This document shows positions 60,509-64,000 of a DNA stretch of 64,000 nucleotides, one piece after another. Under the pieces are notes generated by a model. That model was not told the DNA's origin. It searched no databases and saw only the letters and a list, made by a program, of their open reading frames with translations. Every line of letters starts with the position of its first letter. The stretch's first letter is position 1. Source of the DNA: Vicinamibacteria bacterium (GTDB taxonomy: Bacteria > Acidobacteriota > Vicinamibacteria > Marinacidobacterales > Marinacidobacteraceae); contig OZ241322.1 of assembly GCA_965199715.1 (NCBI GenBank), positions 2,189,486 to 2,253,485 of the forward strand, given 5' to 3'. A program made the position numbers and the translations under genes.

Positions 60509-62092
60509 TTGCGGAGGCTCTCCATGCGACGACTCGTTCCCTTCCTGCTCGGCTTGGCGCTGACCGGCTGCGCCGAGTCGTACGACGTGATCCTCGTCGG
60601 AGGCGAAGTCGTTGACGGCGGAGGAGAACCGGCGCGGTCGGCGGACGTCGGCATCCGCGGCGACCGAATCGCGGCGGTCGGCGATCTGATGTGGGCGCGC
60701 TCGCCGATGCGGGTGGACGTCTCCGGCCTGACGGTCGTTCCGGGGTTCGTGGACATCCACTCCCACGCGGTCCGCGGGGTCATGCGCCATCCGCTCGCCG
60801 AGAACTACCTCCGCCAGGGGGTCACGACCGCGGTGGGCGGCCCCGACGGCGGCTCTCCGCTGCCGATCGGCGCCTGGCTCGACGACTTCGAGGCCGAGGG
60901 CTCCGCGATCAACATGGCGCTGCTCGTGGGGCACGGAACCGTGCGCCGCGAGGTCCTCGGCATGGAGGACCGGGCGCCGACGCCCGGCGAGCTGGAGACG
61001 ATGCGGGGGCTCGTCGATACGGCGATGCGGGAAGGGGCCTGGGGCCTCTCCACCGGCCTCAAGTACACGCCCGCGGCCTTCGCCGAGACCGAGGAAGTGA
61101 TCGAACTCGCGAAGGTGGCCGCCCGGTATCGCGGCGTCCACATCAGCCACATGCGCGAGGAGGGGCTCGCGCTCATGGACGCGGTGCGCGAGACGATCCG
61201 CATCGGCGAGGAGGGCGGCCTGCCCACCCAGCTCACCCACCACAAGGTCGTCGGGGCGCCGATGTGGGGCCGCAGCGTCGAGAGCCTGCGGCTCGTGGAC
61301 GAGGCGGTCGCCCGGGGCGTGGACGTGACCATCGACCAGTACCCGTACACCGCTTCCTCCACCGGGCTCACGATCCTGTTCCCGGCGTGGAGCCTCGCCG
61401 GCGGCGGCGACGCGCTGCTGGAACGCCTCGCCGATCCCGACCAGCGCGAGGCGATTCGGCTCGCGGTGCGCGAGAACCTCGACGTGGATCGGGGCGGCGG
61501 CAGCCCCGACAATGTCGTGATCGCCCGCTGCGCGTGGGACCCGTCGCTCGAGGGGAAGAGCCTCGGCGACATCCTCCGCGAACGCGGCCTCGAGCCGACC
61601 ACCGACGAGGGCGCGACCCTCGCGCTGGAGCTTCAGGAGAAGGGCGGGTTCGGCGGCGTCTTCCACGCGATGCACGAGGACGACGTGCGGCGGATCATGG
61701 CCCACCCGCGGACGATGATCGCGTCCGACGGCGGCGTGGTGGCCCCGGGAGAGGGCGTGCCCCACCCGCGCAACTACGGAACGTTCGCCCGGGTGCTGAG
61801 CCTCTACGTGCGCGAGGGCGGGCTGTTCAGCTTCGAGGAGGCGATCCACAAGATGAGCCGGATGCCCGCGGACCGGCTCGGGCTCTCCGACCGGGGCCGG
61901 ATCGAGGACGGCGCGATCGCCGATCTCGCGGTTCTGGACCCGGACGCCGTCGAGGAGCATGCGAAGTTCGGGGATCCGCACCACTACTCCACCGGAGTCG
62001 GCCACGTGATGGTCGCCGGCGAGTTCGTGCTGCGCGACGGCGAGGTCACCGGAGCTCGCCCCGGTCGGGCCCTGCGCAACCCGGGCTCGTGA
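60509..62092 (+). CDS. N-acyl-D-amino-acid deacylase (D-aminoacylase) family amidohydrolase, lipoprotein (second paralog)
   Basis: Lipobox LLGLALTGCAES. Motifs PGFVDIHSHAVRG, ISHMRE, IASDGG. Same order of blocks as the 52633 paralog. Confidence 0.8.
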   Translation: MRRLSMRRLVPFLLGLALTGCAESYDVILVGGEVVDGGGEPARSADVGIRGDRIAAVGDLMWARSPMRVDVSGLTVVPGFVDIHSHAVRGVMRHPLAENYLRQGVTTAVGGPDGGSPLPIGAWLDDFEAEGSAINMALLVGHGTVRREVLGMEDRAPTPGELETMRGLVDTAMREGAWGLSTGLKYTPAAFAETEEVIELAKVAARYRGVHISHMREEGLALMDAVRETIRIGEEGGLPTQLTHHKVVGAPMWGRSVESLRLVDEAVARGVDVTIDQYPYTASSTGLTILFPAWSLAGGGDALLERLADPDQREAIRLAVRENLDVDRGGGSPDNVVIARCAWDPSLEGKSLGDILRERGLEPTTDEGATLALELQEKGGFGGVFHAMHEDDVRRIMAHPRTMIASDGGVVAPGEGVPHPRNYGTFARVLSLYVREGGLFSFEEAIHKMSRMPADRLGLSDRGRIEDGAIADLAVLDPDAVEEHAKFGDPHHYSTGVGHVMVAGEFVLRDGEVTGARPGRALRNPGS

Positions 62093-63582
62093 GCGCGTCC
62101 CGCTCGGTCGTCGCCGCCGTCGATCAGGGAACCACCAGCAGCCGTTGCCTGCTCTTCGACCGGAGCGGGCGGGTCGTCGGCGCCGCGCAGCGCGAGCACC
62201 GCCAGATTACGCCGGACCGGGGCCTCGTCGAGCACGACGCGGCGGAGATTCGGGACCGGGTGTTCGAGACCGCCGCCGGGGCGCTCGCGTCCGCCGGCCT
62301 GACCGGCGCGGACGTGGCTGCGGTCGGGATCACGAACCAGCGCGAGACGACGGTCGTCTGGGACCCCGAGACCGGCGAGCCGCTCGCGCCCGCGATCGTG
62401 TGGCAGGACACCCGCACCCGCGCCCTCGCCGACGGATTCGCGGAGAGGGTGGGAGCCGAGCGGCTGCGGGAGATCACCGGGCTGCCCGCGGCGACGTACT
62501 TCTCGGGCCCGAAGCTGCAGTGGCTGCTCCGCAACGTCCCGGATCTGCCGGAGCGGGCGCTCTTCGGAACGGTCGATTCGTGGATTTTGTGGAACCTGAC
62601 CGGGGACCGCCGGCACCTCACCGACGCGACCAACGCGAGCCGCACCCAGATGATGGACCTCGCCGACTGCCGCTGGAGTCCAGAACTGCTGGAGGCGCTC
62701 GGGGTTCCCGCGCGGATGCTGCCGGAGATCGTGCCGTCGTCGGATCCCGAAGCGTTCGGCCGGACGAAGGCGGACGGCCCCTTCGGCGCGGAGATCCCGA
62801 TCGCCGGCGTGATCGGCGACCAGCAGGCGGCGCTCCTCGGCCAGCAGTGCCGCCGGCCCGGCGAAGCCAAGTGCACCTACGGAACCGGCGCGTTCCTGCT
62901 GCTTCACACGGGATCCCGACCGGTTCCCTCTTCTTCGGGGATGCTCACGACGGTCGCCTACGCCGACCGAACCGGGGTCGAGTACGCGCTGGAGGGCGCG
63001 GTGGCGGTCGCCGGGTCGCTCGTCCAGTGGCTGCGCGACCAGCTCGGGTTCGCCGACACGGCGGCCGCGGTCGAGAAGCTGGCGCTCGACGTTCCCGACA
63101 CCGGGGGCGTGTACGTCGTCCCCGCGTTCTCGGGCCTATTCGCCCCGTGGTGGCGCGCCGACGCCCGCGGCGTGATCTGCGGGCTGACCCGGTTCGCCGA
63201 CCGCCGCCACCTTGCCCGCGCCGCCCTCGAGGCGACGGCGTTCCAGGTCGCCGACGTGCTCGAGGCGATGCGCAAGGACACGGGCGAGCCGATTTCCGAG
63301 CTGCGCGTCGATGGCGGGATGACGGTGTCCGACCTGCTGCTCGGATTCCAGGCGGACATCCTCGGCGTGCCGGTGGTGCGCCCCGTCCAGCGCGAGACGA
63401 CCGCGCTCGGGGCCGCGATCGCGGCGGGCCTCGCCGTCGGATTCTGGGAGTCGGGAGCGGACCTCCGCGCCGCGCTCGCCGAGGACGCCCGCTTCGAGCC
63501 GGGCATGGAGGCGGAGGAGCGCGAGAACCGAATGGCCGACTGGCGGCGGGCGGTGGAGCGCAGCCTCGACTGGGCGCGGTGA
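62089..63582 (+). CDS. glpK: Glycerol kinase
   Basis: GTG overlaps the preceding stop (GTGA). FGGY kinase family motifs (VAAVDQGTTSSRCLLFD, GITNQRETTVVWD, KCTYGTGAFLL, GGMTVSDLLLGFQADILGVPVVRP). Confidence 0.9.
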   Translation: MSASRSVVAAVDQGTTSSRCLLFDRSGRVVGAAQREHRQITPDRGLVEHDAAEIRDRVFETAAGALASAGLTGADVAAVGITNQRETTVVWDPETGEPLAPAIVWQDTRTRALADGFAERVGAERLREITGLPAATYFSGPKLQWLLRNVPDLPERALFGTVDSWILWNLTGDRRHLTDATNASRTQMMDLADCRWSPELLEALGVPARMLPEIVPSSDPEAFGRTKADGPFGAEIPIAGVIGDQQAALLGQQCRRPGEAKCTYGTGAFLLLHTGSRPVPSSSGMLTTVAYADRTGVEYALEGAVAVAGSLVQWLRDQLGFADTAAAVEKLALDVPDTGGVYVVPAFSGLFAPWWRADARGVICGLTRFADRRHLARAALEATAFQVADVLEAMRKDTGEPISELRVDGGMTVSDLLLGFQADILGVPVVRPVQRETTALGAAIAAGLAVGFWESGADLRAALAEDARFEPGMEAEERENRMADWRRAVERSLDWAR

Positions 63583-63956
63583 TCCGCCGCCTCCAGACCC
63601 TGAACTTCCGCTGCCTGCGGCACATGGACGTGAAGGCAGAACGGGAACTCGGAGTCTCGTGGGTGCGGGAAGTGATCCAGGCCAAGCGGCACAGGCACAC
63701 GATCCAGAGGAAGGAACTCGACGCCCTACGCGGGTCGCTCTACCGATTCGACGCGGTTCGCGGGACCATCGTGGCTACGTCGAGTTTCTCTAAGGGAGCG
63801 CAGGACGCGGCGTTCGCGCAGGGCGCGGCGCCGATCACGCTGATCGACGGCGAGAAGCTCGTTGATCTACTGGTTGAACACAACATCGGGGTCCGAAAGG
63901 AGTCCGTGGAGTTCCTGACCCTGGACGCGGAAGGGCTGGCTCCGGATGAAGACTAG
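63579..63956 (+). CDS. Chimeric remnant ORF: ~30-aa AAA-ATPase-type N-terminus joined to an Mrr-like restriction endonuclease C-terminal domain
   Basis: GTG overlaps the glpK stop (GTGA). MIRRLQTLNFRCLRHMDVKAE resembles the conserved start of ATP-dependent endonuclease/AAA proteins (xLxLxNFRCF). GTIVATSSFSKGAQDAAFAQGAAPITLIDGEKLVDLLVEHNIGV is the Mrr_cat C-terminal signature. Only 125 aa in total. Confidence 0.45.
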   Translation: MIRRLQTLNFRCLRHMDVKAERELGVSWVREVIQAKRHRHTIQRKELDALRGSLYRFDAVRGTIVATSSFSKGAQDAAFAQGAAPITLIDGEKLVDLLVEHNIGVRKESVEFLTLDAEGLAPDED

Positions 63957-64000
63957 GGCCGCCCGAGCGCCCGCCGAGGACTGATTCGCCGTGCGTCTGT

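What the first reader, a model, noticed from the sequence alone, without database searches (positions are those of the whole stretch)
63579..63956. Chimeric AAA-ATPase N-terminus / Mrr endonuclease C-terminus ORF coupled to glpK at the window edge: likely remnant or edge of a defence locus
The 125-aa ORF starts on the glpK stop codon. Its first 20 residues (IRRLQTLNFRCLRHMDV) look like the invariant N-terminus of ATP-dependent nuclease/ABC-type ATPases (OLD, RecF, SMC-like). The rest is the C-terminal catalytic/regulatory region of Mrr-type restriction endonucleases (GTIVATSSFSKGAQDAAF...ITLIDGEKLVDLLVEHNIGV). That combination in 125 aa suggests an internal deletion that fused two defence genes, or an unusual tiny Mrr-C protein. 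Downstream sequence beyond the window may hold the rest of a defence island.
Basis: partly seen in the sequence, partly recalled or inferred. Interest (0 to 1): 0.5.

Follow-up and report, generated by a model that had tools for sequence, protein, structure and literature searches.

The report
Chimeric restriction-gene remnant after glpK
The small gene after the glycerol kinase gene is a leftover: the last quarter of a large Mrr-type restriction nuclease gene joined in frame to a 16-codon stub that looks like the start of an ATPase gene. It marks the edge of a foreign defence island and is ordinary gene decay, not a new system.

Summary
The 125-aa ORF (63579-63956, +) is real, and its GTG start overlaps the glpK stop (GTGA).

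- **Mrr part.** Residues 16/17-125 are the C-terminal 27% of a 400-600-aa stand-alone nuclease family: HARE-HTH, a middle region, a winged helix and Mrr_cat. PADLOC calls this candidate PDC-S02. The ORF matches profile positions 275-379 of 390 (E=1.9e-40) and Pfam Mrr_cat positions 37-115 of 115. It lacks the first helix and strand of the catalytic fold and every DNA-binding domain.
- **N-terminal stub.** Residues 1-15 show no detectable homology to that family at protein or DNA level. Grafted onto two real OLD/RecF-like ATPases, they restore 13.5-18 bits of AAA_15 score; 14 controls add 0-3.3 bits. Their codon-position GC is host-like (GC3 15/15), while the Mrr part is 63% GC against 73% for host genes.
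- **Context.** An MmeI-family type IIG restriction-modification gene starts at 63991. Three relatives (GlpK 82-84% identical) have none of this after glpK.

The ATPase origin rests on 16 residues. The ORF is most likely inert. Interest is low.

The parts
62089..63582 (+). glpK (glycerol kinase), intact resident gene. Its start overlaps the amidohydrolase stop and its stop overlaps the ORF start, both as GTGA.
   Evidence: Pfam FGGY_N 2.3e-66 and FGGY_C 1.8e-47. Homologues are 82-84% identical in L164-L166, and DNA homology runs up to the stop codon and ends there.
63579..63956 (+). 125-aa chimeric ORF, the subject of the finding.
63579..63626 (+). 16-codon N-terminal stub (V/M-IRRLQTLNFRCLRHM). 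It is not derived from the Mrr/PDC-S02 gene, has host-like codon composition and resembles the AAA_15 (OLD/RecF-type ATPase) N-terminal strand.
   Evidence: No family homology: the HMM gain of 1.5 bits is matched by 106 of 500 shuffles; local protein and DNA tests give p>0.1. Graft test: AAA_15 30.7->48.8 bits and 26.6->40.1 bits, controls 30.4-34.0. GC by codon position is 0.60/0.40/1.00 for codons 2-16.
63618..63629 (+). Recombination junction (codons 14-17, CGG CAC ATG GAC). Homology to PDC-S02 begins at M16/D17, with a possible GACGTG microhomology.
   Evidence: The family HMM alignment starts at residue 16. The PADLOC alignment covers residues 16-120. See also the DNA alignment.
63627..63953 (+). 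3' fragment of a PDC-S02-type nuclease gene. It covers Mrr_cat from the catalytic Asp (D17) through the Q34-A-K36 motif to the C-terminal tail. It lacks helix a1, strand b1, the winged helix and HARE-HTH.
   Evidence: Pfam Mrr_cat residues 17-98 = profile 37-115/115. PDLC04796 275-379/390. Full-length relatives are mostly about 400-500 aa (open frame upstream of the match) with HARE-HTH + wHTH + Mrr_cat. GC is 63% and GC3 79%, against 73% and 93% in glpK.
63991..64000 (+). Start (GTG) of an MmeI-family type IIG/IIL restriction-modification gene that runs off the window. GAGGA lies upstream of the start codon.
   Evidence: The identical Logan contig L001 extends it to 316 codons: MmeI_N 6.7e-45 and MmeI_hel 1e-24; PADLOC REase_MTase_IIG 1.3e-109, profile 2-321/912.

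Best explanation
The ORF is a dead chimeric gene remnant at the left border of horizontally acquired defence DNA inserted just after glpK. Codons 17-125 are the 3' end of a stand-alone HARE-HTH/winged-helix/Mrr_cat nuclease gene (PADLOC candidate PDC-S02, annotated 'restriction endonuclease'). Codons 1-16 are the start of a different, host-adapted gene, most probably an AAA_15-type (OLD/RecF-like) ATPase that was translationally coupled to glpK. An illegitimate recombination or deletion, perhaps at the GACGTG (Asp-Val) microhomology, joined the two in frame. That event removed nearly all of the ATPase gene and about three quarters of the nuclease gene. The product can probably still be made, by read-through from glpK and GTGA coupling. 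It lacks the first helix and strand of the PD-(D/E)xK fold, every DNA-binding domain and the P-loop, so it should be neither a nuclease nor an ATPase. Shown: the domain boundaries, the sharp homology breakpoint, the compositional step, the MmeI neighbour and the absence of this DNA in relatives. Inferred: the ATPase identity of the stub, the recombination mechanism and the lack of function.
For: - **Fragment of a large gene.** Mrr_cat is matched only over profile positions 37-115/115. PDC-S02 is matched at 275-379/390 for the ORF, against 4-381/390 (E=7.5e-131) for the full-length relative L012.
- **Size of relatives.** In nearly all of the 80 genome loci the homologous stretch ends a far longer open frame; the predicted proteins are mostly about 400-500 aa. 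Four relatives scanned carry wHTH + Mrr_cat, and three of them also HARE-HTH.
- **Sharp breakpoint.** The family HMM aligns from residue 16. Residues 1-15 add 1.5 bits, which 106 of 500 shuffles and 399 of 1000 random window peptides equal or beat. Local tests find no protein or DNA similarity to any upstream part of the family gene.
- **ATPase-like stub.** Grafting residues 1-16 onto N-terminally deleted OLD-like ATPases raises AAA_15 from 30.7 to 48.8 bits (native 57.3) and from 26.6 to 40.1 bits (native 42.5). The alignment then reaches profile position 1. Seven shuffles and seven random window peptides give 30.4-34.0 bits.
- **Composition.** For stub codons 2-16, GC3 is 15/15. That occurs in roughly a third of true-frame host windows and about 1% of windows in a non-coding phase (my reading). 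The Mrr part has 63% GC and GC3 0.79; the MmeI fragment has 63% GC; glpK has 73% GC and GC3 0.93.
- **Synteny.** L164, L165 and L166 (GlpK 82-84% identical) have no Mrr or MmeI gene after glpK. All three show different content there, and DNA homology to the window stops at the stop codon.
- **Mobility of the neighbour.** The closest MmeI homologues sit among integrases, IS elements and HigBA pairs.
Against: - The retained core shows no excess decay. It deviates at 3 of 55 columns that are >=90% conserved, and 25 of 76 family members deviate at least as often. The catalytic D17 and Q34-x-K36 are intact and there are no internal stops. This fits a recent event but equally fits selection on the fragment.
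- The ATPase assignment rests on 16 residues with no direct Pfam hit. A gain of 13.5-18 bits would not be significant in a blind search of all Pfam families at all positions.
- Nothing beyond 1 kb downstream could be retrieved, so the extent of the island and the fate of the rest of the ATPase gene are unknown.
- About 12 nt just after the stop codon weakly resemble the native downstream sequence of L165 and L166 (9 of 12 identical by my count on the alignment). That would compete with a foreign or ATPase origin for the first codons.
Confidence: 0.68

Rival explanations
1. It is a PDC-S02 3' remnant, but the first 16 codons are not from an ATPase. They would be fortuitous junction sequence, native downstream sequence or an arbitrary upstream extension of an open GC-rich frame. 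Any real start would be the ATG at 63624 (M16).
For: No Pfam ATPase hit at E<=1. The frame is open for 603 codons regardless of coding. There is weak similarity of 63590-63601 to the sequence after glpK in L165/L166.
Against: The AAA_15 gain of +13.5 to +18 bits reaches profile position 1, while 14 of 14 controls add no more than 3.3 bits. GC3 is 15/15 with GC2 0.40 in exactly this frame, a pattern seen in about 1% of windows read in a non-coding phase of host genes.
Confidence: 0.25
2. It is a functional mini-protein. A trimmed Mrr_cat core, co-translated with GlpK, would act as a small nuclease or as a partner or regulator of the adjacent MmeI-type enzyme.
For: The catalytic D and QxK are kept, and the core is as conserved as in intact relatives. 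The ORF is intact and start/stop-coupled to glpK. No terminator-like site lies between glpK and the MmeI gene.
Against: Mrr_cat profile positions 1-36 (helix a1 and strand b1) and all DNA-binding modules are missing. No other genome shows this architecture as a conserved form. The nearest short homologue, P0002, is half of a frameshifted full-length gene. MmeI is not a conserved neighbour of the family: only 2 weak hits besides the window's own copy among the 81 loci. No neighbour family recurs in more than 6 of 80 loci. Even the full-length PDC-S02 representative tested was not among the candidates that protected E. coli B from T4, T5 or T7 (PMC12881386).
Confidence: 0.07
3. It is not a chimera. 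It would be a diverged but complete small Mrr_cat protein whose N-terminus (IRRLQTLNFRCLR) is the family's own helix a1/strand b1 (LVKRLLEEMNYQNVEV) with an 8-residue deletion of the SGDGG loop, as the global alignment suggests.
For: MAFFT places it that way. BLASTP coverage to P0003-P0005 is 98%. Several aligned residues are conservative matches (L/M, F/Y, L/V).
Against: The similarity is not above chance. HMM gain is 1.5 bits. The best local protein score of 24 is equalled by 56 of 300 shuffles and 42 of 400 random window peptides. DNA similarity is below the control mean. The stub deviates from the consensus at 9 of 11 conserved columns, against 3 of 55 in the rest. Even under this reading the first about 10 residues of a1 (MDPFAFEH), the wHTH and HARE-HTH are still missing.
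Confidence: 0.04

Closest known systems
PADLOC candidate defence system PDC-S02 (profile PDLC04796): single-gene HARE-HTH / winged-helix / Mrr_cat 'restriction endonuclease'
   Same: Residues 16-120 align to profile positions 275-379/390 at E=1.9e-40. The matched segment (query residues 16-125) is 60-75% identical to relatives from many phyla, and the catalytic D...QxK motif is conserved.
   Different: Only the last 27% of the profile is present. HARE-HTH, the middle region, the winged helix and the first 36 positions of Mrr_cat are absent. The N-terminus comes from another gene.
Mrr / type IV methyl-directed restriction enzymes (Pfam Mrr_cat PF04471; PADLOC mREase_IV)
   Same: PD-(D/E)xK catalytic core of the Mrr type with QxK. 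Mrr_cat scores 56.9 bits against a cut-off of 21. mREase_IV scores 58.8 bits over profile 215-300/317.
   Different: The catalytic domain is truncated and there is no N-terminal DNA-reading domain. Modification dependence of this family is untested. HARE-HTH has been proposed as a reader of modified DNA (Aravind & Iyer 2012, as cited in PMC11037411).
AAA_15 / OLD / RecF-SMC-type ABC ATPases (PF13175, PF13476, PF02463)
   Same: The first 16 residues behave as that clan's N-terminal strand (hydrophobic-x-hydrophobic-x-NFR-x-hydrophobic) in the graft tests.
   Different: There is no Walker A or any other ATPase motif and no direct profile hit. At most a 16-codon stub of such a gene is left.
MmeI-family type IIG/IIL restriction-modification enzymes
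   Same: The next gene (from 63991) has MmeI_N and MmeI_hel domains and matches REase_MTase_IIG at 1.3e-109.
   Different: It is a neighbour, not part of the ORF. Only its first 316 codons could be read.

Membership tests
Mrr_cat (PF04471) | Profile match above the gathering score | tested here: met
   56.9 bits against a cut-off of 21, E=2.8e-15
Mrr_cat (PF04471) | Complete catalytic domain (helix a1, strand b1, then the strands carrying D and (E/Q)xK) | tested here: not met
   Only profile positions 37-115 of 115 are matched. Complete-domain relatives match positions 2-115.
Mrr_cat (PF04471) | Catalytic Asp and (E/Q)-x-K motif | tested here: met
   D17 and Q34-A-K36 fall in invariant columns of the family alignment
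PDC-S02 (PADLOC PDLC04796) | Significant match to the profile | tested here: met
   E=1.9e-40, 137 bits
PDC-S02 (PADLOC PDLC04796) | Full-length architecture (HARE-HTH, middle region, winged helix, Mrr_cat; about 390 profile positions) | tested here: not met
   The ORF covers positions 275-379/390, whereas L012 covers 4-381/390. HARE-HTH and wHTH are found in relatives only.
PDC-S02 (PADLOC PDLC04796) | Anti-phage activity | not testable with these tools
   PDC-S02 is a candidate only. One representative tested in E. coli B was not among the candidates that protected against T4, T5 or T7 (PMC12881386).
AAA_15 / OLD / RecF-like ATPase | N-terminal strand motif (h-x-h-x-N-F-R-x-h) at the very N-terminus | tested here: met
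   Grafts add +18.1 and +13.5 bits to AAA_15 and the alignment reaches profile position 1. Fourteen controls add +0 to +3.3 bits.
AAA_15 / OLD / RecF-like ATPase | Walker A P-loop and the rest of the ATPase domain | tested here: not met
   No GxxxxGK[ST] in the 125 residues. No ATPase family hit at E<=1.
MmeI-family type IIG RM (downstream gene) | MmeI_N nuclease domain and helical spacer | tested here: met
   MmeI_N 6.7e-45 and MmeI_hel 1e-24. A D...EQK motif is visible in FIDLFWPGVLLVEQKS.
MmeI-family type IIG RM (downstream gene) | Methyltransferase, target-recognition and C-terminal domains in the same polypeptide | not testable with these tools
   The window ends at 64000 and the only retrievable contig (L001) ends after codon 316. 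No identical full-length protein appeared.

The most novel reading that the evidence does not exclude
The PDC-S02 C-terminal module may be a recurrently re-used cassette and not simple debris. In-frame fusions of its 3' part to unrelated N-terminal stubs are seen in the window (AAA_15-like stub), in P0017 (ABC_tran stub joined at GGVDV) and in P0054 (HsdR-like stub). The retained core shows no excess decay. Such trimmed Mrr_cat proteins could be expressed and selected, for example as modulators or dominant-negative partners of resident nucleases, or as partners of the neighbouring type IIG enzyme.
Probability: 0.06. Interest if true: 0.5.

Novelty: new member of a known kind. Interest (0 to 1): 0.15.

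Why it matters
The biological weight is small. The finding documents how defence islands turn over. A foreign block carrying a type IIG restriction-modification gene sits in a spot after glpK that differs in every related genome examined. At its border lies an in-frame fusion of two broken defence-type genes. For annotation, this ORF should be flagged as a fragment or pseudogene of a PDC-S02/Mrr-type nuclease, not as a 'restriction endonuclease'. One speculative link is a conflict between a possibly modification-dependent (type IV-like) nuclease and an incoming methyltransferase, which would select for loss of the nuclease. Nothing here tests that idea.

Tried and rejected
- **Stub as the family's own a1/b1 with an 8-aa deletion.** The global alignment suggested it. 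It was rejected by the HMM gain test, local protein alignment against shuffles and random window peptides, and a DNA local alignment that scored below the control mean.
- **Stub from the family's winged helix.** By eye, IRRLQTLNFRCL resembles RRRLNNLLDRGL. A scan of 283 aa upstream in 61 full-length relatives gave p of about 0.3-0.9.
- **A conserved short form.** P0002 (112 aa, 74% identical) turned out to be the second half of a frameshifted full-length gene on a 3x-coverage contig.
- **A conserved Mrr-MmeI pair or other conserved neighbour.** Only 2 weak MmeI-like hits besides the window's own copy among the 81 loci. No neighbour family occurs in more than 6 of 80 loci.
- **Synteny from JGI metagenomes.** The best glpK relatives there are only 52-61% identical and so uninformative.
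- **Retrieving the downstream island.** The 2.35-Mb contig's DNA was never returned. The exact glpK product was not on record. The MmeI search returned nothing above 80% identity. The cluster look-up gave no accession.
- **Structure prediction.** The ORF gave pLDDT 42.8 and the complete-domain control P0003 gave 47.4 with the same 23-sequence alignment. The result is uninformative, so no fold search was run.
- **Other scans.** No tRNA was found on L001, the retrieved contig that spans the locus. No promoter-like or terminator-like site was found in 63300-64000. NCBIfam gave no hit for the ORF.
Full report
**Observation.** GTG at 63579 overlaps the glpK stop codon (GTGA), and TAG lies at 63954-63956, giving 125 codons. 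An open frame is weak evidence in this 72%-GC window, because the same frame is open for 603 codons. Homology settles the matter for residues 16-125:
- Pfam Mrr_cat, E=2.8e-15.
- PADLOC PDC-S02, E=1.9e-40.
- 69 homologues at E<=1e-3 besides the identical sequence.

The identical protein is recorded on a 2.35-Mb NCBI/ENA contig and on Logan contigs. The one Logan contig retrieved matches the window with 0 mismatches over 10,422 bases, so the junctions are not assembly artefacts.

**What the Mrr part is.** The Pfam match covers only profile positions 37-115 of 115. I fetched 80 genome loci that encode relatives. They come from Gemmatimonadota, Acidobacteriota, Rhodothermales, Myxococcota, Chloroflexota, Planctomycetota, Latescibacterota, Proteobacteria and others, and many appear to be sponge-associated MAGs, judging by their isolate names. 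In nearly all of them the homologous stretch is the end of a much longer open frame, with conserved sequence far upstream. The predicted proteins are mostly about 400-500 aa.

Four full-length relatives were scanned against Pfam. All four carry a winged helix and a complete Mrr_cat, with a conserved middle region between the N-terminus and the winged helix. Three of them also carry one or two HARE-HTH domains.

PADLOC files this family as candidate system PDC-S02. L012 covers profile positions 4-381/390 (E=7.5e-131), while the window ORF covers only 275-379/390. Plasmid records call relatives 'restriction endonuclease'. The family has no conserved neighbour, since no family recurs in more than 6 of 80 loci. 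It is therefore a solitary, horizontally mobile nuclease gene. The window holds only its last quarter. Helix a1 and strand b1 of the PD-(D/E)xK fold and every DNA-binding module are missing. The catalytic D17 and Q34-x-K36 remain.

**The N-terminus.** A global alignment places IRRLQTLNFRCLR against the family's own a1/b1 (LVKRLLEEMNYQNVEV) with an 8-residue gap. That placement does not survive testing:
- In a family HMM the first 15 residues add 1.5 bits. This is equalled or beaten by 106 of 500 shuffles and 399 of 1000 random window peptides, and the alignment starts at residue 16.
- Local protein alignment to the 43 aa upstream of the catalytic Asp is at chance level. So is alignment to 283 aa upstream.
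- DNA similarity to the 60 nt upstream of the Asp codon in the relatives is below the control mean.
- The stub deviates from the consensus at 9 of 11 conserved columns, against 3 of 55 in the rest.

So there is a sharp breakpoint at codons 14-17.

**Testing the ATPase idea.** I therefore grafted residues 1-16 onto two real OLD/RecF-like ATPases from the fetched loci, after removing their own N-termini.

| Host | Without N-terminus (AAA_15 bits) | With window stub | With native N-terminus |
|---|---|---|---|
| L073 | 30.7 | 48.8 | 57.3 |
| L005 | 26.6 | 40.1 | 42.5 |

With the stub the alignment reaches profile position 1. AAA_23 and DUF2813 also rise, and SMC_N appears among the hits. Seven shuffles and seven random window peptides gave 30.4-34.0 bits. 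A gain of 13.5-18 bits would not be significant in a blind search of all families and positions. It is a strong match for an N-terminus-to-N-terminus comparison with one clan that is common in defence loci.

Independent support comes from composition. In stub codons 2-16 the GC content by codon position is 0.60/0.40/1.00. A run of 15/15 at the third position occurs in roughly a third of true-frame 15-codon windows of the host genes and in about 1% of windows read in a non-coding phase (my reading). The rest of the ORF has GC3 0.79. The stub thus looks like genuine, host-adapted coding sequence in this frame, joined to compositionally foreign DNA.

**Context.** GC drops from 73% in glpK to 63% in the Mrr fragment, and stays at 63% in the next gene. 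That gene starts at 63991. On the identical contig L001 it reads for 316 codons as MmeI_N + MmeI_hel, and it matches PADLOC REase_MTase_IIG at E=1.3e-109 over profile 2-321/912. Its closest homologues (about 80% identity) lie among integrases, IS elements and HigBA pairs, and are themselves fragmented.

Three relatives with 82-84% identical GlpK share the upstream peptidase gene, and L164 also keeps the amidohydrolase gene. None carries an Mrr or MmeI gene after glpK, and each differs at that spot:
- L164 has a 150-nt tandem array.
- L165 has a remnant of an AAA_16 gene.
- L166 has that AAA_16 gene intact and convergent.
- In L164 and L165 a convergent ABC-transporter operon follows.

DNA homology to the window ends at the glpK stop codon. 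The spot after glpK is therefore a variable site in this clade, and the window's content is an insertion.

**Mechanism, with shown and inferred steps.**
- Shown: the ORF is an in-frame join of a 16-codon host-like stub and the 3' quarter of a PDC-S02 gene, at the edge of foreign DNA that continues into a type IIG restriction-modification gene.
- Inferred: the stub is the start of an AAA_15-type ATPase gene once coupled to glpK. The same GTGA overlap links the amidohydrolase gene and glpK.
- Inferred: illegitimate recombination, possibly at GACGTG, produced the fusion.
- Inferred: the product is inert, because it lacks a1/b1, all DNA readers and the P-loop.

No terminator-like or promoter-like site separates glpK, the ORF and the MmeI gene, so read-through transcription is plausible.

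**Evidence that cuts the other way.** The retained core is no more decayed than intact relatives. It has 3 deviations at 55 conserved columns, and 25 of 76 members have at least as many. That fits a recent event but does not exclude selection. Structure prediction could not help: the ORF scored pLDDT 42.8 and a complete-domain control scored 47.4 with the same shallow alignment.

**Comparison with known families.** The ORF is a fragment of PDC-S02/Mrr_cat, not a member in the functional sense, because the completeness tests fail. It carries only the N-terminal motif of AAA_15 ATPases. PDC-S02 itself is an unvalidated candidate. One representative tested in E. coli B was not among the four of eight candidates that protected against T4, T5 or T7 (PMC12881386). 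HARE-HTH has been proposed as a reader of modified DNA (Aravind & Iyer 2012, cited in PMC11037411). A clash between such a nuclease and an incoming methyltransferase could in principle favour its loss. That is speculation.

**Verdict.** The ORF is a chimera of an ATPase-like N-terminal stub and an Mrr-type C-terminus, sitting at the edge of a defence locus. It is ordinary gene decay in a defence island. The novelty is that of a new (broken) member of a known kind, and interest is low (0.15).

Noticed in passing
L164:9463-10198: In a relative's genome, a 150-nt tandem repeat (4.9 copies, 91% matches) starts inside the last 44 nt of glpK and fills the gap to the convergent ABC-transporter gene. 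The site after glpK is rearranged differently in each of the four genomes compared.
   Followed up: partly
L083:41-565 (P0017) and L169:822-1208 (P0054): Two other in-frame chimeras keep the PDC-S02 3' end. One has an ABC_tran N-terminal stub of about 60 aa joined at the shared GGVDV. The other has an HsdR-like 36-aa stub joined after the QAKRH motif. Their Mrr parts are nearly identical to each other. Both sit on short metagenome contigs, so assembly chimeras are not excluded.
   Followed up: partly
L027:9806-10339 (P0018); L045:609-890; L077:5671-5985: Further truncated or frameshifted copies of the same nuclease gene occur in MAGs. L027 is truncated at its 5' end and carries an unrelated N-terminus that I judged, by eye only, to resemble a transposase. 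The broken copy in L077 is followed directly by an AAA_15-like ATPase gene (from 6177).
   Followed up: no
window:62089-62092: The amidohydrolase stop and the glpK start overlap as GTGA, the same 4-nt coupling as between glpK and the chimeric ORF.
   Followed up: yes
L167:5308-8121 and L168:5279-7293: The closest MmeI-type homologues (about 80% identity) are each preceded by a HigB-like toxin/HTH pair about 110 bp upstream. They lie among integrases, IS elements and a TrwC relaxase gene. Both MmeI genes are broken: one is split into 412-aa and 116-aa pieces, and the other is cut short beside IS21-type genes.
   Followed up: no
L002-L081 (80 genome loci): The C-terminal 110 aa of the PDC-S02 nuclease are 60-75% identical across MAGs of at least nine phyla, many apparently sponge-associated. 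There is no conserved neighbouring gene. This pattern points to frequent horizontal transfer of a solitary gene.
   Followed up: partly
L165:6411-6575: A 54-aa ORF with a weak GmrSD_N hit lies next to the peptidase gene upstream of glpK in a relative. It may be another defence-gene remnant at this locus.
   Followed up: no
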